Shown here: positions 1 to 27,649 of the stretch, piece after piece
Numbering within the stretch: position 1 is the stretch's first letter
Layout: each line of letters begins with the position of its first letter
IMG/VR virus record: IMGVR_UViG_644736364_000008
Origin: a virus
Lineage: Duplodnaviria > Heunggongvirae > Uroviricota > Caudoviricetes
DNA length: 64,000 bases
Strand: one strand, 5' to 3'
Made by a program: the position numbers and the translations under genes
Notes under the pieces: model-generated
Seen by the model: only the letters and a program-made list of their open reading frames with translations
What the model was told of the DNA's origin: nothing
Database searches by the model: none

Positions 1-398
1 ACAAACTCACTGGTTTTCAGGGTGATATTGTCGGCAGCCTCAATAACCATGGATTTGATGCCCCTGACATACCAGCGCCCGGTGGCGGGTTCGTATTCAA
101 ACCAGCCACCGTCAGGATGTTCTGTCACGCAGGCGTCCGCCGACGTCGACGGTGGTGCGAACTGATTCGAATAGACAGCGGGCAGCGCAAAGGCGGTCTC
201 CAGATTGCCGCCCAGACTCAGCAGCACCACCTGCTCACCTTCCGATGGTCGCCACCATGTCCGGGCATTCCCGGCACGCAGGGTCAGCCAGCTGATCCAG
301 TTGGTTTCTAAGTCGCCTGTTTTCACCCGACAAAGCCAGTTTTCCCGGTCCACTTCGGTGACTACCCCAGTGCGGATCAGGTTGGTGATAAGGCGCAT
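1..398 (-). CDS. V: Baseplate assembly/spike protein V (3' end truncated by window edge)
   Basis: Minus-strand ATG at 398; translation MRLITNLIRTGVVTEVDRENWLCRVKTGD...TWWRPSEGEQVVLLSLGG resembles P2 gpV; lies downstream of S as in P2. Confidence 0.8.
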   Translation of the reverse strand, partial: MRLITNLIRTGVVTEVDRENWLCRVKTGDLETNWISWLTLRAGNARTWWRPSEGEQVVLLSLGGNLETAFALPAVYSNQFAPPSTSADACVTEHPDGGWFEYEPATGRWYVRGIKSMVIEAADNITLKTSEF

Positions 399-468
399 GA
401 TTTCGGTTAGTTGTGTGTTCATGAAAATAGACTGCTATATCTCAAAATTGAGAAGTAGCTTTGATAGT

Positions 469-486
469 TGTATCACGGCTGTCACA
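469..486 (-). promoter_or_regulatory. Late-promoter activator (Ogr/B-type) site TGT-N12-ACA upstream of V
   Basis: tgtatcacggctgtcaca is an exact TGT-N12-ACA dyad, placed as expected for a P2-type late promoter of V. Confidence 0.45.
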
Positions 487-560
487 AACAACTGGCAAAA
501 AACGACTACTATCTATAAATTATTGAGAGTTATCTCATTAACAAAAAAGAAGCTTGGTAA

Positions 561-2261
561 ATGGAACACTTAAGACAACTGCAAAATAAAACTTCCCTGT
601 TAGAAAAGTACGGGACTAGTAACGCACATCTTTTATGGTCATTAGGTCTTTACTTAGATGAATCCGATTTTGATAAGCTAGCATCTGATGGACTTACTGA
701 TGGTGGAAACGATAAGAAAATAGACTTCATTACCGTAATTAATTCAACGTTATTTATTGCTCAGGGTTACTACTGCAATCAGCAAGCACTTAAAATAGTT
801 GCGCCTGCAAATAAAGCTTCTGACTTAAACACTGCTTTAGCGTGGATTATGGCAGGCTCAGGAGAGTCTCCAAATGCAAAATTAAGAGCAAAAATTTCTG
901 AGGTTAGAAAATTAATTGATGATAACGAAATTGAAGCTGTTGAATTATTATATATCCATAATTGTGCCGAATCTGAGCAGGTTAAAACTGAGCTTGAAAC
1001 TTGTCGTGACTATCTAGCAGGTAGATTTGCAGACAAAGAAATTGAGGTAACTTACAGAGAACTTGGTGTTAATAGTCTTGAAAAATTGTATATTGCGCTA
1101 TCACAACAAATTGTTGTGACTGACAATATAAAGTTCAATGGCGAACTTATAAATTCTGTACAAGGTGATGGCTGGACTTCACATGTTGGCTTTGCAAACG
1201 GCACTTGGCTAAATTATTTATACAAAAATTATGGAGCAGAATTATTTTCTGCTAATTATAGGGGGTTCATGGGATTAAATAAGAGAAGAAAAATAAACTC
1301 ATCAATTAAGAATACCGCAGAAACATCCCCAAAAGACTTCTTTGTCTTTAACAATGGTGTATCAATCCTAACAACAAAATTCAACAAAGAAAAAGGGTTG
1401 TTGGAAGGAGTTTCAATCATAAATGGAGCTCAAACCACTGGTTCTATTGGTTCAGTTCAAGATATACAAAAATTAGATGGCCTAAAAGTCCTTTGTAAGG
1501 TTATTGAATGTAATGATGCGGACAAAGTAAAAAAAATAGTCCAGTATAATAATACTCAGAATCATATTACAACCTGGGATCACTACTCTAACAGCACAGA
1601 ACAAAAACAGGTGGCAGAAGAATTTTCCACTCTTGGTTATACATATTCACTGAAACGCGGCTTCGAAAATACTGGTTCTTTATTTGGCATTGAGTCTGTT
1701 GCTCAACCGCTGATAGCGTTACATGGGGATTATGTTAGCGCCAATAGAGGTAAAAACTACGTTTTCGATACAAAATCAGCCTATGACAATGCCTTTCATG
1801 ATTCGAAAGCCCAGCATATTTTATGTGCTTACACTATTTCAAAAGCTATAGAAAAAGTAAAATCTCAAATCCGTGCAAAAGAGAATAAAATTAAAGTAGA
1901 TGAGGATAACTTATTATTCCTCCAAAATTTAAAGTCTCGATTCTTTTTAATATCCGTCATCGGAGAAATACTTGAAGAATTAACAGATAAACCTTTGAAC
2001 AAGAAGAAAATAAAATATAAATATGATACAGCATTATCTAAAAATAACTCTCTGGATGATTTAATCGACCTTTGGACACCAGTTATAACTGCGATATTAC
2101 CACATGTTATCCGTGTTTCAGGTCAAGATTTAACCACCTACTTATCTGTAACAGACAACCCGTTATCTATCGTATCAAAGGAAGTTAAAAACATATTAAC
2201 ATCCTTAAAAGCGTTCCAACCGATTGAGCCATTAATTACTCTTTCAAATCACCTTGAATAA
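561..2261 (+). CDS. AT-rich cargo gene between V and S; possible AIPR/Abi-like abortive-infection protein (566 aa)
   Basis: Long ORF opposite to the tail operon, markedly AT-rich, own -35/-10-like region and terminator; N-terminal DGLTDGGNDKKIDF motif; sits at the P2 orf30 position. Confidence 0.55.
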   Translation: MEHLRQLQNKTSLLEKYGTSNAHLLWSLGLYLDESDFDKLASDGLTDGGNDKKIDFITVINSTLFIAQGYYCNQQALKIVAPANKASDLNTALAWIMAGSGESPNAKLRAKISEVRKLIDDNEIEAVELLYIHNCAESEQVKTELETCRDYLAGRFADKEIEVTYRELGVNSLEKLYIALSQQIVVTDNIKFNGELINSVQGDGWTSHVGFANGTWLNYLYKNYGAELFSANYRGFMGLNKRRKINSSIKNTAETSPKDFFVFNNGVSILTTKFNKEKGLLEGVSIINGAQTTGSIGSVQDIQKLDGLKVLCKVIECNDADKVKKIVQYNNTQNHITTWDHYSNSTEQKQVAEEFSTLGYTYSLKRGFENTGSLFGIESVAQPLIALHGDYVSANRGKNYVFDTKSAYDNAFHDSKAQHILCAYTISKAIEKVKSQIRAKENKIKVDEDNLLFLQNLKSRFFLISVIGEILEELTDKPLNKKKIKYKYDTALSKNNSLDDLIDLWTPVITAILPHVIRVSGQDLTTYLSVTDNPLSIVSKEVKNILTSLKAFQPIEPLITLSNHLE

Positions 2262-2263
2262 AT

Positions 2264-2290
2264 AACGGGTGGCCTCCTAGGCCACCCGTT
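2264..2290. terminator. Bidirectional hairpin terminator between the cargo gene and S
   Basis: Perfect inverted repeat aacgggtggcc-tccta-ggccacccgtt, followed by a T-rich run. Confidence 0.6.
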
Positions 2291-2316
2291 CATAACTTAT
2301 TTTTAATCTAAAATTT

Positions 2317-2775
2317 TTACGGCTTATTGTTATTAATTAACCATTGATAAAAAACATTCTTAACGTTGTTCTCAATATCATTGTTAATACCCAACAAACG
2401 CCGCTCTGCATACCGTACGTCCGGTCCTTTGCGACTGACGCGATCACGCAGACCGTAATGGTGAACACGGGCAATGCGCTGTACCTTACCTTCAAACTGC
2501 ACGCTGGCAGAGTCGGCGCTGGCGGCAGTTTTCAGGTATTTTGTGGTGCGCAGCTTTGCAAACATCTGACGTTTGATACGGCCTTTTTTACTGCGTGCTG
2601 TTACCCGTCGCGGTTCATAGCTGCTGCCGTCAGGGTTGCGCTGCATCCTGATATTCTGCTGCTGTGTCCGGCGAAGTTCCTGCGCCAGCTGGCGCATCAT
2701 GCGGCTTCTCGAGGCTGGTTCCAGATTCGCCAGCAAGGCACTCAGCCAGTCGTCCACCTTCTGCAGTTCAGCCAC
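2317..2775 (-). CDS. S: Tail completion / virion morphogenesis protein S
   Basis: 152-aa ORF; position and size match P2 gpS; overlaps R stop. Confidence 0.75.
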   Translation of the reverse strand: MAELQKVDDWLSALLANLEPASRSRMMRQLAQELRRTQQQNIRMQRNPDGSSYEPRRVTARSKKGRIKRQMFAKLRTTKYLKTAASADSASVQFEGKVQRIARVHHYGLRDRVSRKGPDVRYAERRLLGINNDIENNVKNVFYQWLINNNKP

Positions 2776-3220
2776 ATTTCACCGTCCACATTTCTTCAGG
2801 TGCATCAGGTTCCGCTATAGCTTCAACGCTCGACACACTGCCGTCAGTGCTGACCAGCACACGTTCCGTCAGTTGCAGGTTCAGGCTGATATCACAGACA
2901 TCGTTGCGCAGAATATCCACCTCAAAGGTGAATAGCTTTTCCCGTAACGCCGGGTTATTGATGGCATCGGGCTGGTTATCCCTCAGCCACAGCAAAACCG
3001 GGGCCATCAGCAGATTCTGGTCGCCGCTGAAATCCTCAATCACCGCGTTCAGTGTGTAACGGTACTCCCACGACATGGAGCTGGCCCCCGTGGCAACCAG
3101 CGAACCGTTATCCACAAACAGATGCAGTTTGTCCGGGTTATTGCGGACATAAGGCACCGCTTTATTGAGGGCGTGGCGCAGGGATTGTGGTTTGTTCACT
3201 GTTTCGCTCCTGACACGCAA
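2768..3220 (-). CDS. R: Tail completion protein R
   Basis: 150-aa ORF; KPQSLRHAL...LHLFVDNGS resembles the P2 gpR N-terminus; synteny. Confidence 0.75.
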   Translation of the reverse strand: MRVRSETVNKPQSLRHALNKAVPYVRNNPDKLHLFVDNGSLVATGASSMSWEYRYTLNAVIEDFSGDQNLLMAPVLLWLRDNQPDAINNPALREKLFTFEVDILRNDVCDISLNLQLTERVLVSTDGSVSSVEAIAEPDAPEEMWTVKCG

Positions 3221-3452
3221 TAATCATGTCCACTTTGTCTGCACAGACCGCCCAGGCGGCCTCCGTTTCATCCAGCAACGCGTTCAGATCACCGTTAGTG
3301 CGCGGCGTTGCCTGATCCAGCCGACACGGCGTCACTCGCGGACAACCACTGACGGTAAGCCATACCTCCGGTGAGTGCCGGACGTTTCCGCAGCCGGATA
3401 ATGTCAGCAGGCAAAGGAGTATCAGCCCAGCGGCGTAAATCCTCGTTCTCAC
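3162..3452 (-). CDS. lysC: LysC-like o-spanin (lipoprotein) overlapping lysB out of frame
   Basis: Signal peptide plus lipobox LTLSGC; embedded in and extending past lysB as in P2. Confidence 0.45.
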   Translation of the reverse strand: MRTRIYAAGLILLCLLTLSGCGNVRHSPEVWLTVSGCPRVTPCRLDQATPRTNGDLNALLDETEAAWAVCADKVDMIIACQERNSEQTTIPAPRPQ

Positions 3453-20590: not shown

Positions 20591-21814
20591 ATGCGCAACA
20601 TTATCGAATTAGAACAGATATCGGAAGAACTAAAAAAACATGAACTATTGCAACCCCCATTCATTGCCGAGGGAAAACTAATTTCTGACTTTTCTAAGAG
20701 AGTCGAGTGCTATTTAGAATTAATTGACTCCATTAGAAATAAATATCCTGACAACGAGATAATTAAACAAGTAAAGATTCGCACAAAATCAATAATATAT
20801 TTATCTGATAAAATAATAGAAACTCTTAAGCTATTTTTAATAGGAAATGTTAAAGAAGCTTATAAAAAATTCGATTTGGCAATTACCAAGTCATCAATGC
20901 ATACTCATCTTTATAAGATGACTGTTCCTCTAACTAAATTATGCAACCCACACACCCCTTTATTTCGCGTAAGGAAAAGTGAGTGCATCCTAAAACAAAG
21001 AGAAGAATTATTTCATATACCATTTAAAAATAGACATTTAGTTAGCGCACAAAGATTTTCTGTATCCGGTCTTCCATGTTTATATCTTGGAACATCAATA
21101 TTTGTATGTTGGCAAGAAATGGGAAAACCTGACTTTGATAAACTTTACATATCTTCCTTCATATCCGATAAAGAAAATTCAAATATAAGAATTTTAGATC
21201 TTGGGTACAATTTAACATCTGCACTTCGTACAAAACCGGGAGATCTTTGGTATTCATTCGAACAAGGTTCAGATGATGATTACGATCTAAATAATGATAA
21301 TTTCATGGATCAAATTAATGATAAAATTTCAAAGTTGATTGCATGGCCTTTAGTCCTTGCATGTAACTATACAAAAGATAATGAAAACGCAAGTTTTAAT
21401 AAAGAATACATAATACCAAACCTATTAATGCAATGGATTAGTAGTGACAGAAACAAAAATATATCAGGGATATCGTATCGATCAACAAAGATATTAAACC
21501 AAAAAGATAGCGATATTGGGATTAATGTAATTATCCCCCCAAAAATAGAAAACATAGTTGAAACCAATGATACCCACTGTCCTGTTTTAAAAAAAATATT
21601 TAGAGTTACAAACCCTGTTTCCTGGACTGTGTTTAGTACACTAGAAGCCACCCCCTATCTATACAAAAATAATTTTAATTTTTCGACCTATAATCCCGCA
21701 AAAGGATGGATTGAAGACTTTGATGAATCCCTTGTTGAACATTATGAAAATACCACTTTTAGAAAAGTTGAACTCCTTATTCATCAAATGATGAAGTATG
21801 AATATTTAAAATAA
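20591..21814 (+). CDS. AT-rich cargo protein (407 aa) with central RES-like domain
   Basis: Strongly AT-rich ORF between int and att; LFRVRKSE...QRFSVSGLPCLYLGTSIFVCWQE resembles the RES (Arg-Glu-Ser) toxin signature. Confidence 0.75.
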   Translation: MRNIIELEQISEELKKHELLQPPFIAEGKLISDFSKRVECYLELIDSIRNKYPDNEIIKQVKIRTKSIIYLSDKIIETLKLFLIGNVKEAYKKFDLAITKSSMHTHLYKMTVPLTKLCNPHTPLFRVRKSECILKQREELFHIPFKNRHLVSAQRFSVSGLPCLYLGTSIFVCWQEMGKPDFDKLYISSFISDKENSNIRILDLGYNLTSALRTKPGDLWYSFEQGSDDDYDLNNDNFMDQINDKISKLIAWPLVLACNYTKDNENASFNKEYIIPNLLMQWISSDRNKNISGISYRSTKILNQKDSDIGINVIIPPKIENIVETNDTHCPVLKKIFRVTNPVSWTVFSTLEATPYLYKNNFNFSTYNPAKGWIEDFDESLVEHYENTTFRKVELLIHQMMKYEYLK

Positions 21815-22360: not shown

Positions 22361-22558
22361 ATGGCACTGGACAGTTATGCATCTCCGAATATTATTCCGG
22401 AGCTAAGACAACCGAATGCCGCAGCAGGTAAGATCACGCTAGGGGGGCTGGACAGAATGGCTGTTACGCCCAGTGTGAAGAAAAGAAGGCTAAGTATGGT
22501 AGAATTTCCATACGCACAGACCTTGTTATCCGACTATACAGCCTGGAAGGCACTATGA
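22361..22558 (+). CDS. Small ORF (65 aa) coupled to the downstream nuclease-like gene
   Basis: Stop overlaps next ATG (ATGA). Confidence 0.3.
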   Translation: MALDSYASPNIIPELRQPNAAAGKITLGGLDRMAVTPSVKKRRLSMVEFPYAQTLLSDYTAWKAL

Positions 22559-23343
22559 CAAATCTACAACTGGAAGAAAGATTTAGGGCGCTTGAGAAAG
22601 ATTACGATGCGCTCATTTCCACAAAATATACTGCGCAGAACGTTCTCACTCACACTATGGAAACCTATGTTGATTCTGGTAAATATAAAAACTGGATCGC
22701 CAGAGTGAAAAAGTTAATAGAGGACAGCTACGGAAAAGAGTCTGATTATTACAATGACTTCAATACTGTAAACAGCAGGTGGTCTTCTAATTACAATACA
22801 CTGATCAAAAGTTATAAACCGTTGTTTGATGCGGCGAGAGATGATCTTGCGCACTCTGCTGTCAGTACTAATACTCCTCAAGAAGGTTCGCCGCTGAGCC
22901 TCGTACTTAATATTCTTAACAGGTTTCCGACCTTTGTTCGCCAGTTAAAGAGGCGGTACAACGGCCGTGCGCCGCTTGAAGTTAATGATGAGTATGACGT
23001 ACAGGATTTGATTTATGCACTGCTGACGCTTCATTTTAATGATATTAGGGCGGAAGAGTATACCCCCAGCTTTGCGGGCGCGGCCTCAAGACAGGACTTT
23101 CTTTTGAAAAAAGAGAAAATTGTGATAGAGGTGAAGAAAACCCGTGAATCTCTGGGAGCGGGTAAAGTTGGTGGAGAGTTGCTTATTGATATGGCGCGCT
23201 ACCGCGCTCACCAAGACTGCGATACGTTGATCTTGTTTGTATATGACCCGGATTGCTACATAAATAATCCTTTGGGCGTGAAAACCGATCTGGAATCTAA
23301 AGACGCGGAAGGAAAAGTGAAGGTTGTTATTGCGCAGTTCTGA
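22555..23343 (+). CDS. PD-(D/E)xK nuclease-like protein (262 aa) with N-terminal coiled-coil region
   Basis: C-terminal EVNDEYDVQDL ... KIVIEVKK pattern fits a D...(D/E)xK restriction-endonuclease-like core. Confidence 0.65.
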   Translation: MTNLQLEERFRALEKDYDALISTKYTAQNVLTHTMETYVDSGKYKNWIARVKKLIEDSYGKESDYYNDFNTVNSRWSSNYNTLIKSYKPLFDAARDDLAHSAVSTNTPQEGSPLSLVLNILNRFPTFVRQLKRRYNGRAPLEVNDEYDVQDLIYALLTLHFNDIRAEEYTPSFAGAASRQDFLLKKEKIVIEVKKTRESLGAGKVGGELLIDMARYRAHQDCDTLILFVYDPDCYINNPLGVKTDLESKDAEGKVKVVIAQF

Positions 23344-23430
23344 CACGCTTAAGTGTCACCTTACAGGATTAGGTTTGCGGCCGTGCCAGCAGGACGAGCA
23401 TGAAAAAGGCCGCTGGCACGGCCGGATTTG

Positions 23431-23724
23431 TCATCTTTGCCAGGTCAAATCAAAATCTACGTGAAAATCCGCAGGCTTAAGCTCGCAACTGCCACCACGC
23501 CCAATTAACGACGTTATGTTTACAACGTTTGAACCTGTTGAGATGGCAAGTTGAGTGTCATCTGTAAACGTGATGATTAGCATTTCAGTCTGATGAACCT
23601 GTACTCCAGTTTTCTGAAAACCAATCTGGACAGATTTCACCGTTTTCCCAACCATTTCACGGGCTTGATTGATAGAGTAATTAGCTTCAACTTGTAGGTC
23701 ATTCCTGAACTTGGGTAGTGTCAT
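23431..23724 (-). CDS. Hypothetical protein (97 aa)
   Basis: ORF downstream of the GIY-YIG gene on the same strand. Confidence 0.45.
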   Translation of the reverse strand: MTLPKFRNDLQVEANYSINQAREMVGKTVKSVQIGFQKTGVQVHQTEMLIITFTDDTQLAISTGSNVVNITSLIGRGGSCELKPADFHVDFDLTWQR

Positions 23725-23934
23725 TTTACATCCTCTTTAGTGAAGTTTTCGCTATTTAAATCAGCAGCATTCCTTTTAAATCACTGGCATGTCAGCAGTG
23801 GATAGTCTGAGTGTAACGTCCAGTGAGGGGAATAAATATTGGTCAGACTTTGCACAAAAGAGCCAACTATCGCGGGCTCTCTCTCATCATGTGCGAAAAT
23901 TGACCACAATATGAAATCCAGTTCCATTCCGAAA

Positions 23935-24759
<825 letters not shown>

Positions 24760-24857
24760 TCAATTGACAACTTATAATCCCTACTAGTTAGCATTATGAT
24801 TTCCAGAGTGAGGAATATAAAAATCTCTGTTTCTGGCACATAACAGCCCTTAAGATC

Positions 24858-24915
24858 GTAGCTCGCCATCATGGGGTGTCGGGGGGCGGAGGTTCAAATC
24901 CTCTCGTGCCGACCA
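24858..24915 (+). tRNA. 3' fragment (about 58 nt) of a tRNA-Pro(GGG)-like gene; 5' acceptor/D-arm absent
   Basis: ggaggttcaaatcctctcgtgccgacca (T-arm, 3' acceptor, CCA) with anticodon-loop-like tcatggggtg; no complementary 5' acceptor strand. Confidence 0.6.
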
Positions 24916-24928
24916 AAAATCCCTTAAG

Positions 24929-24956
24929 AACCAGCCTATTATGGCTGGTTTTTTTA
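24929..24956 (+). terminator. Rho-independent terminator after the tRNA fragment
   Basis: aaccagcc-tatta-tggctggtt followed by TTTTTTT. Confidence 0.6.
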
Positions 24957-25097
24957 TGATTGTTTTTTATGCGGAGAAATACCGGGGAATAATTGGGGTA
25001 AAACACCTTTAGGCTATTCACTTAGCCTACCACCATCAAAATCTTTCCGAATGTATCCATCTCTTTTTTCTTATGCAGCTAAAACGAAGTCTTGATA

Positions 25098-25141
25098 CTG
25101 TTTATTTACACAGATAAGAATAATACTGTCTACAAACGCAG
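25098..25141 (+). promoter_or_regulatory. Two LexA boxes (one exact, one with one mismatch) upstream of a DinI-like remnant
   Basis: ctgtttatttacacag (CTGT-N8-ACAG) and ctgtctacaaacgcag. Confidence 0.5.
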
Positions 25142-25156
25142 TACAAAAGAAGTGTT

Positions 25157-25335
25157 ATGCGTATTGAGATCTCCATAGCCAAAGACAAAATGACCAAATG
25201 CCAAACGGCGCTGTGGACGCGTTAAAGGAAGAATTAACCCAACACATTGGCAAGCGTTATGACGATGTGGAGATGATCGTAAAAGCCACCAGCAACGATA
25301 GTTTTTCAGTTAGACATACTGCAGATAAAGATTGA
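25157..25335 (+). pseudogene. DinI-family gene disrupted by a frameshift
   Basis: Frame 1 gives [14 protein letters not shown] then stops; a second frame starting at 25198 gives [38 protein letters not shown] (DinI-like core). Confidence 0.45.
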
Positions 25336-25759
25336 GCTAAAACTTTCGTTCAGGAAACTCTGAATGATACCTGAGAGTCTACTGAAGAGTTGTTTGTTCA
25401 CTAGTTAGCACGTAGGAAATCATTCAATACTCGCACTATCGGAAGTTCACCAGCCAGTCGTAGCACGTCCTTGCAAACGACGTGCCTACGGTTTCAATCA
25501 CCTCTCACCATCAATTCTATCAATAATAATTAAACAGCGCCTAGACAAAATAAATAACAACAAGTCAACAACCTCGACAGGATGCCGATGGGATGATGAA
25601 GAGATAAGAAAGAATAACCAGTAAAGCCCTAAAACGTCAGCGTTCAGACGCGTTTTTTACTTAATCGGTAACAAATACGTTGTATCATAGCAAAATAAAA
25701 TGATTGTTCTAAATCAGATTAACTCCTCACTTTTGTACAATGTCGCTTACAGGTATACC

Positions 25760-27649
25760 ATGAAATCCGAGACGCTAACTGTCCAACAACTTTTTCAAGA
25801 CCGCCGACAATACTGTGTTCCATTCTATCAACGTGCCTATGTATGGACTCAGCAAGACCAGTGGTCAGCTCTACTGGAGGATATCCTAGAGAAAGTACAA
25901 TCCCGGCTCTCGGGTACAAAACCAACTCCCCATTTCCTTGGTGCGGTTGTACTGGAACCTCAATCAAAAAAAGGATTATTAGGTGTAGATTCCATACATA
26001 TTATTGATGGTCAGCAACGATTGACCACTCTTCAATATGTTCTGGCATCCATCCGATTAGCATTACGTGCTACGGATCTTTCCAGCTTAGAGGCTCTCAT
26101 TTCGCCTTGCCTGAAAAACTCAAACGAAGACACAATGCGAAATAAAGAAGTAGAACGCTTCAAACTGTGGCCAACTTTTCGGGATCAAACTCATTTTATT
26201 CAAAGTTTTAATGTTGAAAATATTGACGATCTCCGGGACGTATTCTCTGATAGTTTCACGCAGCATGGTACGTTGCGTAAGCATTTTAATCACCCGCCAT
26301 CACTAGAAGCATTATGTTTTTTTACTGAAGCCTTTATAAAATGGATTAAAATAGAAAACCACTCACCACAAGAAAATGCTGTAGCTCTAATTGAGGCTGT
26401 CTTAACAGATCTGAAACTGGTAAGCATATTTCTCGAAGCTGAAGATGATGCCCAAATAATTTTTGAAACATTAAATGGGCGAGGGGCGGAACTTCATGCT
26501 ACGGATCTTATTCGCAACTATATCTTTATGTGCGCTGAGCATGAAAATATTAATGCTATTGAATTATATGAAAATGAGTGGAAGAGCTTTGAAGATAAAT
26601 ACTGGTCGGAAAAACAACGCCGTGGACGTATTAATAAACCACGCATGGAGTGGCTAGTACATGCGACATTGCAATCAGAAAGGCAACGTGAAATTGATCT
26701 GTCTCGCCTTTACAATGAGTATCGTGATTATGTAAGTAAGGACTTGTCTTCACAACGAGCAGATCTGCAAGTAAAGCGCCTCAAACAATATGCATCACAA
26801 TATAAAGAATTGGTTGATGGTTTTGGCACAACCCCCATCTCACACTTTGGATATCGCATCGCAGACTATGATGTGACGACACTTTATCCGCTTGCTTTGT
26901 TCATTTCGATAGCTAACATCGCTGATGATGAGAAAGCAGCCATGTATAATGATCTTGTCTCCTACGTAGTACGAAGAGCCGTATGTGGCCTGACGCCAAA
27001 GAATTACAACAATGTATTTATGAATGTATTGCGGCACTTGGCTAAAACGGAAATTTCCAGTGTTGAGTTACGTAATATCCTCAATAACTTAAATGGCGAA
27101 GCCTCACGTTGGCCTGGTGACTCAGAATTTCTCAACGCTTGCATCAATGCTCCACTTTATCCTGGCAGGCTCGACGCACCGAAAATGCGCTCAATGTTAA
27201 CGGAACTTGAAAGAGAACTTTGTCGCCAAGTAAAGACAGAAAAGCCTGATGTTCCAAATCTTTCTAATCTCGATATCGATCATCTTATGCCTCAAAGTTG
27301 GTATTCCTGTTGGCCTCTCGAAAATGGTCGTATGGTGACAAATTCAGATGCTACGGTATTGAACCAAATTGTTCTGTCTGGAACCGATCTTACCCCTGAA
27401 CAGCTACTGGTAAGGAAACGGCAACAAGCGATATCTACTTTGGGAAATCTAACTTTGCTTAACCTTAGCGTAAACCGTTCTGTTCAGAATGCTGTATTTC
27501 TGAAAAAACGTGATGCTCTCATCGTCCACACCAATCTACGACTGAACATTCCACTTATAGTTAAGGATAAATGGGATGAGGATGAAATCCTGGAGCGGGG
27601 TAAAAAGTTGGGGGAAATTGCATTGAAAGTATGGCCAAAACACGATTAA
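25760..27649 (+). CDS. GmrSD-family type IV (modification-dependent) restriction endonuclease-like protein (DUF262 + DUF1524/HNH)
   Basis: N-terminal IIDGQQRLTT motif and C-terminal DIDHLMPQSW...GNLTLLNLSVNRSVQN His-Me finger; alternative ATG at 25700. Confidence 0.8.
   Translation: MKSETLTVQQLFQDRRQYCVPFYQRAYVWTQQDQWSALLEDILEKVQSRLSGTKPTPHFLGAVVLEPQSKKGLLGVDSIHIIDGQQRLTTLQYVLASIRLALRATDLSSLEALISPCLKNSNEDTMRNKEVERFKLWPTFRDQTHFIQSFNVENIDDLRDVFSDSFTQHGTLRKHFNHPPSLEALCFFTEAFIKWIKIENHSPQENAVALIEAVLTDLKLVSIFLEAEDDAQIIFETLNGRGAELHATDLIRNYIFMCAEHENINAIELYENEWKSFEDKYWSEKQRRGRINKPRMEWLVHATLQSERQREIDLSRLYNEYRDYVSKDLSSQRADLQVKRLKQYASQYKELVDGFGTTPISHFGYRIADYDVTTLYPLALFISIANIADDEKAAMYNDLVSYVVRRAVCGLTPKNYNNVFMNVLRHLAKTEISSVELRNILNNLNGEASRWPGDSEFLNACINAPLYPGRLDAPKMRSMLTELERELCRQVKTEKPDVPNLSNLDIDHLMPQSWYSCWPLENGRMVTNSDATVLNQIVLSGTDLTPEQLLVRKRQQAISTLGNLTLLNLSVNRSVQNAVFLKKRDALIVHTNLRLNIPLIVKDKWDEDEILERGKKLGEIALKVWPKHD

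What the first reader, a model, noticed from the sequence alone, without database searches (positions are those of the whole stretch)
421..2300. AT-rich single-gene insertion between tail genes V and S of the P2-like prophage
In P2-type phages S and V are adjacent apart from a small variable ORF. Here a 566-aa gene (561-2261) sits on the opposite strand with its own promoter-like region and a perfect bidirectional terminator (2264-2290), and is much more AT-rich than the flanking late genes. The late-promoter activator dyad for V (469-486) is intact just beside it. Its N-terminus carries a DGLTDGGNDKKIDF motif that reminds me of AIPR-type abortive-infection proteins, so it is a candidate defence or exclusion gene.
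Basis: partly seen in the sequence, partly recalled or inferred. Interest (0 to 1): 0.7.

Follow-up and report, generated by a model that had tools for sequence, protein, structure and literature searches.

The report
AbiU-type defence gene in prophage

Summary
A 566-aa ORF (561-2261, +) lies between P2-type genes V and S, on the opposite strand. Its GC content is 34%, against 56% in the flanks. A 12-bp hairpin (2264-2290) and a correctly placed late-activator dyad (469-486) border it.

Homologues occur across many phyla as single genes with no conserved partner, and usually at lower GC than their surroundings. They sit on chromosomes, plasmids and other prophage cargo sites.

The locus copies P2's non-essential orf30 site (terminator, opposite-strand cargo, activator site, V). 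In an evenly spaced sample of 60 E. coli matches, 22 carried cargo, including TIR, SIR2 and AIPR genes. Only 8 of 1049 genomes carry AIPR there, as two anciently diverged alleles under purifying selection.

The most likely function is a lysogen-expressed, single-protein nuclease defence. No experiment exists for this protein, and the mechanism is inferred. I rate it already known and of low-to-moderate interest.

The parts
3..422 (-). 5' part of baseplate spike gene V (the gene runs off the left edge of the window); conserved flank
   Evidence: TIGR01644 phage_P2_V 1.7e-51 and PF04717. RefSeq names it baseplate assembly protein V. It is 96-97% identical to prophages with an empty S-V site, and that homology stops exactly at 422.
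423..2370 (.). Foreign AT-rich cassette (GC 0.34) that replaces the normal ~110-bp S-V junction
   Evidence: Homology to the empty site L003 breaks at 422 and resumes at 2371. In allele L002 this segment is 53-75% identical while the flanks are 91-96% identical.
469..486 (.). Late-activator (Ogr-type) dyad TGT-N12-ACA of the V-operon promoter
   Evidence: Its centre is 55.5 nt upstream of the V ATG in the window, L002, L003 and L004. P2 annotates an activator binding site here and places the V transcription start at the first base of V.
492..519 (+). Possible promoter of the AIPR gene: CTGGCA-16 nt-TATAAA (weak, unverified)
   Evidence: Read from the sequence. The consensus scan did not report it. 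A TATA-rich element sits at the same place in allele L002.
561..2261 (+). AIPR/AbiU-family gene, 566 aa (WP_000400690.1)
   Evidence: Purifying selection against allele L002: pN 0.10 against pS 0.77.
561..1115 (+). N-terminal PD-(D/E)xK-fold nuclease-like domain (about aa 1-185), with invariant T46, D47, D51, D55, Q68 and K85
1116..1805 (+). ParB/DUF262-like core of the AIPR domain (about aa 186-415), with the invariant N288-G-A-Q-T292 motif at nt 1422-1436
1806..2258 (+). C-terminal all-helical domain (about aa 416-566); the most variable part between alleles
   Evidence: Secondary structure. Amino-acid identity between alleles is 76% here, against 91% in the core.
2264..2290 (.). GC-rich hairpin shared by the converging AIPR gene and the late (O...S) operon; a terminator
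   Evidence: 12-bp stem, flagged on the - strand. Folding energy is -22.6 and -23.2 kcal/mol. P2 annotates a terminator for the O operon at the equivalent place.
2317..2775 (-). Tail completion gene S; its last ~18 codons (2317-2370, GC 0.24) belong to the cassette
   Evidence: PF05069 7.6e-41 and TIGR01635. The C-terminal tails differ with each cargo but keep the pattern LLG...WL.

Best explanation
The gene is horizontally acquired cargo (a 'moron') in the known variable orf30 position of a P2/186-like prophage. It encodes a stand-alone anti-phage protein of the AIPR/AbiU family.

It is transcribed against the late operons, from its own weak promoter. It is boxed in by the late-operon terminator on one side and the activator-dependent V promoter on the other. 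It can therefore be expressed in the lysogen without disturbing tail gene expression (inferred).

The protein joins three parts: an N-terminal PD-(D/E)xK-fold nuclease-like domain, a ParB/DUF262-like domain carrying the family's invariant NGAQT motif, and a variable helical C-terminal domain (shown by model and fold search).

My proposed mechanism, which is inferred, is as follows. The ParB-like and helical part binds DNA or a nucleotide and senses an infecting phage. It then licenses the nuclease domain to cut DNA. That blocks or delays phage transcription and replication, which is the phenotype reported for lactococcal AbiU. The outcome protects the lysogen population, and so the prophage, from unrelated phages.

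My confidence differs by sub-claim: about 0.95 for family membership and cargo status, about 0.7 for a defence role, and about 0.3 for the specific mechanism.
For: Family:
- Pfam AIPR 90.9 bits against cutoff 25.
- PADLOC AbiU 1.7e-24.
- All 68 aligned homologues hit both models.
- PHROG 1841 matches over the full length, and RefSeq uses the AIPR name.

Fold:
- AF2 model with pLDDT 84.6.
- DUF262/GmrSD_N and DndB-like proteins are the next neighbours in BFVD.
- The literature agrees. AbiU1/AIPR/COG1479 is described as a ParB-superfamily nuclease domain fused to other nucleases (PMC3632139). AbiUi alone confers resistance, delays phage transcription, and its model superimposes on FokI (PMC13064643).

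Mobile single-gene behaviour:
- 80 loci from many phyla.
- The gene's GC is on average 12 points below its flanks.
- No Pfam family is shared by more than 2 of 120 immediate neighbours.
- Copies lie in the gpA-gpQ defence hotspot of Klebsiella Peduoviridae, next to cI in Aggregatibacter phage S1249, at the edge of a Pantoea P2-like prophage, on Klebsiella IncF/R plasmids, and in the Aeromonas chromosome.

Locus:
- The architecture matches P2's non-essential orf30 site.
- The orf30 position is a recognised site of horizontally acquired genes (PMC3091744).
- 22 of 60 evenly sampled E. coli S-V loci carry cargo, including TIR and SIR2 proteins.
- AbiU is reported in P2-like prophages, and a tail-gene hotspot is described (PMC13586616).

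Functional constraint:
- The two E. coli alleles have pN 0.10 against saturated pS 0.77.
Against: - No experiment exists for this protein or any close relative. AIPR cassettes were listed in P4 hotspots but are not named among the seven systems described as validated (PMC9122126).
- The canonical (D/E)xK triad is absent. The strand that should carry it has invariant Q68-G-Y70, so catalytic competence is unproven.
- The consensus scan found no promoter. AT-rich cargo may also be silenced in the lysogen.
- The PADLOC AbiU model aligns only to aa 115-511.
- Lactococcal AbiU gives only 10- to 100-fold protection (PMC13064643).
- The prophage's replication gene is frameshifted, so any benefit to the phage itself may be moot.
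Confidence: 0.7

Rival explanations
1. It is a defence protein that acts as a direct, restriction-like enzyme rather than by abortive infection. It would resemble type IV or modification-dependent nucleases, cutting modified or otherwise marked incoming DNA without killing the host.
Against: The family name and the only phenotype on record (AbiU, delayed phage transcription) come from work on abortive infection (PMC13064643). No DNA-recognition domain of the SRA type is seen. This subfamily shows no restriction-modification neighbours. The data here cannot separate this reading from the main one.
Confidence: 0.2
2. The nuclease-like domain is catalytically dead. The protein would work as a DNA- or nucleotide-binding switch, for example by NTP hydrolysis or depletion, or by blocking transcription through DNA binding, rather than by cutting DNA.
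For: The (D/E)xK position reads Q-G-Y in all 68 homologues. ParB/DUF262-type domains are NTP-binding switches in other systems (established knowledge). AbiU delays rather than abolishes phage transcription (PMC13064643).
Against: Invariant D47, D51, D55, Q68 and K85 cluster in the nuclease-fold domain, which suggests a conserved active site. The nuclease fold is the strongest structural signal.
Confidence: 0.12
3. It is not an anti-phage gene. It could be cargo with another role (anti-plasmid, prophage or host fitness), or a selfish nuclease gene that spreads among P2-like phages by targeting empty S-V sites.
For: No functional data exist. The cassette sits between highly conserved flanks, and two very different alleles occupy the same site. 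The orf30 site also carries genes of unknown function.
Against: The same protein family occurs in unrelated contexts that lack S-V flanks: plasmids, chromosomes and other hotspots. It is rare at the site (8 of 1049). Known defence genes (TIR, SIR2) share the site. The protein matches curated defence models.
Confidence: 0.06

Closest known systems
Lactococcus lactis AbiU (AbiU1/AbiUi) and the PADLOC/DefenseFinder 'AbiU' class
   Same: Single protein of roughly the same size. It matches the PADLOC AbiU model (1.7e-24) and carries the AIPR domain. Its AF2 model, like that of AbiUi, superimposes on the FokI nuclease (PMC13064643). AbiU has already been reported in P2-like prophages (PMC13586616).
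   Different: Similarity is at profile level only and covers aa 115-511; the first 114 residues are not matched. This copy is prophage-borne in a proteobacterium rather than plasmid-borne in a lactococcus. It has no AbiUii-like HEPN neighbour. No phenotype is known. I could not obtain the AbiU1 sequence or the original paper for a direct comparison.
Pfam AIPR (PF10592) / COG1479 proteins linked to restriction-modification operons
   Same: Scores well above the gathering threshold. It fits the family description of a ParB-superfamily domain fused to another nuclease (PMC3632139).
   Different: This ~570-aa subfamily shows no recurrent restriction-modification or other partner among 120 immediate neighbours.
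MzaE of the MZA system
   Same: Shares the AIPR core (aa 213-349).
   Different: It scores 50 bits against an equivalog cutoff of 1050. There are no MzaA-D genes, because the neighbours are phage genes S and V. It is not a member.
GmrSD / BrxU / SspE type IV enzymes (DUF262 + DUF1524)
   Same: They share the logic of a ParB-like module joined to a nuclease in one polypeptide. DUF262 proteins are the nearest non-AIPR folds in BFVD.
   Different: The domain order is reversed. The nuclease has a PD-(D/E)xK fold rather than an HNH-like one. The motif is NGAQT rather than DGQQR (the DGQQR motif is from my own knowledge). There is no detectable sequence relation to the GmrSD in this window.
P2 orf30 locus and the other P2 cargo loci (old/tin, Z/fun)
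   Same: The anatomy is identical to P2: S, terminator, opposite-strand non-essential gene, activator site, leaderless V. The position is known to hold horizontally acquired genes (PMC3091744).
   Different: The cargo is unrelated to Orf30, which has no Pfam or PADLOC hit. The papers I read name the gpA-gpQ, Z/fun and tail-cI hotspots, not S-V explicitly (PMC9122126, PMC9519451, 10.1101/2024.10.15.618418). PMC13586616 mentions a hotspot 'within the tail genes, downstream of GpL', and I could not map that statement to this interval.

Membership tests
Pfam AIPR (PF10592) | Whole-protein score above the curated gathering threshold | tested here: met
   90.9 bits against 25, E=1.6e-25, aa 229-498 matching profile positions 1-289 of 308. 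All 68 homologues also match.
AbiU (PADLOC/DefenseFinder class) | Significant match to the AbiU profile, as a single-gene system | tested here: met
   E=1.7e-24, 84.9 bits, profile positions 138-513 of 537. 68 of 68 homologues match. No conserved partner gene.
AbiU (lactococcal prototype) | Confers phage resistance on its own and delays phage transcription | not testable with these tools
   Needs plaque assays and RNA time courses. The phenotype is known only for L. lactis AbiUi (PMC13064643).
AbiU (lactococcal prototype) | Full-length pairwise homology to AbiU1 | not tested
The profile match leaves aa 1-114 uncovered.
MzaE (MZA system) | Score above the NCBIfam equivalog cutoff, with MzaA-D neighbours | tested here: not met
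   50.3 bits against cutoff 1050. The neighbours are phage genes V and S.
PD-(D/E)xK nuclease superfamily | Restriction-endonuclease-like alpha/beta fold | tested here: met
PD-(D/E)xK nuclease superfamily | Catalytic D...(D/E)xK signature | tested here: inconclusive
   Invariant D47, D51 and D55 precede strand 56-60. The next strand carries invariant Q68-G-Y70 instead of (D/E)xK. K85 is invariant on the following helix. I had no residue-level superposition.
ParB/Srx superfamily (includes DUF262/GmrSD_N and DndB) | ParB-like fold of the AIPR core | tested here: inconclusive
HEPN | Conserved Rx4-6H motif in a helical bundle | tested here: not met
P2 orf30-position cargo | Lies between S and V, after the O-operon terminator and before the activator site of PV, and is absent from most relatives | tested here: met
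   Only 8 of 1049 genomes carry AIPR there.

The most novel reading that the evidence does not exclude
Two readings beyond the routine one are not excluded.

(a) The S-V (orf30) interval may be a bona fide, under-described third defence hotspot of P2-like prophages. It is occupied in roughly a third of E. coli copies, with TIR, SIR2, AIPR and many unnamed genes. Cassettes appear to be swapped by recombination inside S and V, so that each cassette brings its own S tail and V promoter.

(b) AIPR/AbiU proteins may be nucleotide- or DNA-gated nucleases built from a ParB/DUF262-type switch fused to a PD-(D/E)xK domain with an unusual D...QxY site. That would make them a reversed-order analogue of GmrSD/SspE. 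This E. coli allele would give a tractable model for a widespread family with no known mechanism.
Probability: 0.3. Interest if true: 0.45.

Novelty: already known. Interest (0 to 1): 0.25.

Why it matters
The result adds little that is new. The protein is already labelled AIPR in RefSeq and matches PADLOC's AbiU model, so standard defence finders would probably call it AbiU. AbiU has been reported in P2-like prophages, and the orf30 position is a known variable locus.

The remaining value is practical:
- It is a clean, single-gene E. coli representative of a very widespread family whose mechanism is still unknown, so it is easy to test.
- The S-V interval looks like a compact place to mine further single-gene defence candidates. 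Many occupants are annotated only as 'hypothetical'.

Tried and rejected
- A profile search of the 68-sequence alignment against all PDB sequences gave nothing relevant (best E 0.37).
- The afdb50 fold library was not available.
- hhalign of the family profile against the GmrSD/DUF262 protein encoded in the same window gave probability 0.2%.
- Permissive Pfam scans of all 68 homologues showed no second domain, so no ParBc, DUF262, DndB or HEPN.
- A search for a conserved partner gene found none. Across 120 immediate neighbours of 63 loci, no Pfam family occurred more than twice. I therefore rejected a two-gene or restriction-modification-linked system for this subfamily.
- MzaE membership is rejected.
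- HEPN is rejected, because no Rx4-6H motif is apparent.
- The consensus promoter scan found no + strand promoter upstream of the gene.
- The original AbiU paper, the supplements of PMC13586616 and a contig look-up for P0022 were not available.
- The idea of a simple insertion is rejected in favour of cassette replacement. Homology to the empty site breaks at 422 and 2371, inside S.

Full report
**Where the window comes from.** Bases 1-3300 are 100% identical to the E. coli MS7163 chromosome (NZ_CP026853.1) and to two other genomes. The region is the late-gene block of a P2/186-like prophage integrated next to ssrA, with the late genes on the - strand.

**Check of the observation.** ORF 561-2261 (+) encodes 566 aa. 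With the local base composition, an open frame of this length has a chance probability of about 3e-20.

Its neighbours are phage genes on the - strand.
- V starts at 422 (TIGR01644, 1.7e-51).
- S lies at 2317-2775 (PF05069, 7.6e-41).

GC is 0.343 in the gene, against 0.56-0.57 in V, in most of S and in the late genes.

The hairpin at 2264-2290 has a perfect 12-bp stem and folds at about -23 kcal/mol on either strand. The scan calls it a terminator on the - strand, where it follows S. On the + strand the T-run starts about 9 nt after the stem.

The dyad at 469-486 is a TGT-N12-ACA site. Its centre is 55.5 nt upstream of the V ATG. A dyad sits at exactly that distance in three other prophages, with or without cargo. 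The P2 reference annotates an activator binding site there and places the V transcription start at the first base of the V coding sequence. The spacing is therefore the expected one.

The claim of an 'own promoter' is the weakest part of the observation. The consensus scan found none on the + strand. By eye there is only CTGGCA-16 nt-TATAAA at 492-519.

**Extent of the foreign DNA.** Compared with a prophage that has an empty site (L003, 68-bp spacer), homology stops at 422 and resumes at 2371. The foreign segment is therefore 423-2370. It includes the V promoter region and the last ~18 codons of S, which have GC 0.24.

The S tails differ with each cargo but keep the pattern LLG...WL. My inference is that the cassette arrived by recombination within S and V from another P2-like phage that already carried it, not by insertion into a spacer.

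**What the protein is.** The database matches agree.
- Pfam AIPR: 90.9 bits against a cutoff of 25.
- PADLOC AbiU: 1.7e-24, with a weaker MzaE hit.
- NCBIfam MzaE: only 50 bits against a cutoff of 1050.
- PHROG 1841: full-length match at 4e-146.
- RefSeq product name: 'AIPR family protein'.

A database search returned over 1000 relatives. The best 120 are nearly all 565-620 aa and carry only the AIPR domain.

An alignment of 68 of them has two invariant clusters.
- N-terminal cluster: T46, D47, D51, D55, Q68 and K85.
- Central cluster: N264-N-G, N288-G-A-Q-T292 and N330-N-x-Q-N.

**Structure.** The AlphaFold model built on that alignment has mean pLDDT 84.6.

In the viral structure library the top hit is an AIPR protein (1e-12). 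The following hits are DUF262/GmrSD_N proteins and DndB-like proteins.

This agrees with the literature.
- The AbiU1/AIPR/COG1479 family is described as a ParB-superfamily nuclease domain fused to other nuclease domains (PMC3632139).
- A 2026 review superimposed the lactococcal AbiUi model on FokI (PMC13064643).

The canonical (D/E)xK triad is not present. The strand that should carry it reads Q68-G-Y70 in all homologues, so catalytic activity is plausible but unproven. No HEPN motif is apparent.

**How the gene behaves.** Eighty loci from Proteobacteria, Cyanobacteria, Bacteroidota, Firmicutes, Actinobacteria and an archaeon encode relatives. On average the gene is 12 GC points below its flanks.

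Among 120 immediate neighbours of 63 loci, no Pfam family occurs more than twice. This subfamily is therefore a stand-alone gene, without the restriction-modification linkage reported for AIPR proteins in general.

Related copies sit in several kinds of place.
- The classical gpA-gpQ defence hotspot of Klebsiella Peduoviridae (31% identity).
- Immediately after the repressor gene of Aggregatibacter phage S1249.
- The edge of a Pantoea P2-like prophage (80% identity).
- Beside thrABC in Aeromonas, with no phage nearby (58% identity).
- Klebsiella IncF/IncR plasmids (76% identity).

**The locus.** In P2 the order is S, terminator, Orf30 (non-essential, opposite strand), activator site, V. That is the same anatomy as here. 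The orf30 position is one of three regions where P2-like phages are known to carry horizontally acquired genes (PMC3091744).

Of the 1049 E. coli complete genomes with these flanks, only 8 carry an AIPR gene there.

An evenly spaced sample of 60 matches gave the following.
- 31 empty sites.
- 22 sites with cargo, annotated as TIR, SIR2, DUF6216, DUF2971, PcfJ, FRG, AIPR or hypothetical.
- 7 matches with only one flank.

A Klebsiella phage carries an unrelated 503-aa ORF at the site, with no Pfam or PADLOC hit.

**Two alleles.** Five E. coli genomes carry a second AIPR allele at the same site. The flanks are 96% identical. The gene is only 75% identical in DNA and 84% in protein. Synonymous sites are saturated (pS 0.77), while pN is 0.10.

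The alleles are therefore old, are kept under purifying selection, and have been exchanged between closely related phage backbones. Divergence is highest in aa 121-228 and in the C-terminal helical domain (76-78% identity). It is lowest in the ParB-like core (91%).

**Most likely function.** Family membership and cargo status are firm. A defence role is inferred from four lines of evidence.
- The family's curated defence models.
- The AbiU precedent: AbiUi alone gives resistance and delays phage transcription (PMC13064643).
- The mobile, low-GC, single-gene behaviour.
- The company the gene keeps at prophage cargo sites.

The mechanism I commit to is a sensor-gated nuclease. The ParB-like and helical part binds DNA or a nucleotide and licenses the N-terminal nuclease-fold domain. 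That step is inference only.

Three rivals remain:
- a direct, type IV-like restriction activity;
- a nuclease-dead binding or NTPase switch;
- a role unrelated to defence, or a selfish nuclease gene.

**Novelty.** The protein is already annotated as AIPR, and its match to PADLOC's AbiU model means standard defence finders would probably call it AbiU. A 2026 survey reports AbiU in P2-like prophages and a defence hotspot within the tail genes (PMC13586616).

AIPR cassettes were listed in P4 hotspots, but they are not named among the seven systems described as validated there (PMC9122126). The papers I read name the gpA-gpQ, Z/fun and tail-cI hotspots rather than S-V explicitly (PMC9519451; 10.1101/2024.10.15.618418). 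A systematic description of the S-V cargo, and any mechanism for AIPR proteins, would therefore be the only new ground.

**Verdict.** I classify the finding as already known, with interest of about 0.25.

Noticed in passing
window 11127-12536 (-): The same prophage carries a 469-aa 'hypothetical protein' in the classical gpA-gpQ hotspot. It matches PADLOC PD-T7-1 over its full length (E=1.3e-196). The prophage therefore holds at least two defence-type cargo genes at two different loci.
   Followed up: partly
window 22555-27649: Just beyond the prophage integrase lies a run of defence-type genes. These are a DpnII/MboI-like REase-domain protein (22555-23343, +), PD-T4-3, a LEM-3-like GIY-YIG protein (23935-24708, -; E=7e-137), and a GmrSD-type type IV restriction enzyme (25760-27649, +; full-length mREase_IV). 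Together they look like a small defence island next to the ssrA integration site.
   Followed up: partly
window 13445-15885 (-) (NZ_CP026853.1 2865965-2868405): The prophage replication endonuclease gene (gpA homologue) is annotated as frameshifted. The prophage may be unable to replicate even though its cargo genes are intact.
   Followed up: no
window 20591-21814 (+): A 407-aa hypothetical protein lies directly after the integrase. It has no Pfam or PADLOC hit. Its position corresponds to the 'integrase-att' cargo site described for P2-like prophages (PMC13586616).
   Followed up: partly
window 2317-2370 (-); L002, L003, L004: The last ~15-18 codons of tail gene S differ with each S-V cargo and are AT-rich here (GC 0.24), yet they keep the pattern LLG...WL. 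The recombination junction of the cassettes therefore lies inside S, and each cassette brings its own S tail and its own copy of the V-promoter dyad.
   Followed up: partly
L002 (E. coli Q5) against window 1-3300: A second AIPR allele sits at the same site. The flanks are 96% identical, but the gene is only 75% identical in DNA, with saturated synonymous sites. This points to cassette exchange between near-identical phage backbones.
   Followed up: yes
E. coli S-V intervals H69, H112, H96, H111, H113, H86; L004 1049-2560: Other occupants of the S-V site include TIR, SIR2, DUF2971, PcfJ, FRG and DUF6216 proteins and several 'hypothetical' genes. One is a 503-aa Klebsiella phage ORF with no family hit. 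This looks like a compact source of single-gene defence candidates.
   Followed up: partly
window 422 (V start) and 469-486: The V operon appears to be leaderless, as in P2. The activator dyad centre is 55.5 nt upstream of the ATG, and P2 annotates the transcription start at the first base of V. No Shine-Dalgarno sequence is apparent upstream of the V start.
   Followed up: partly
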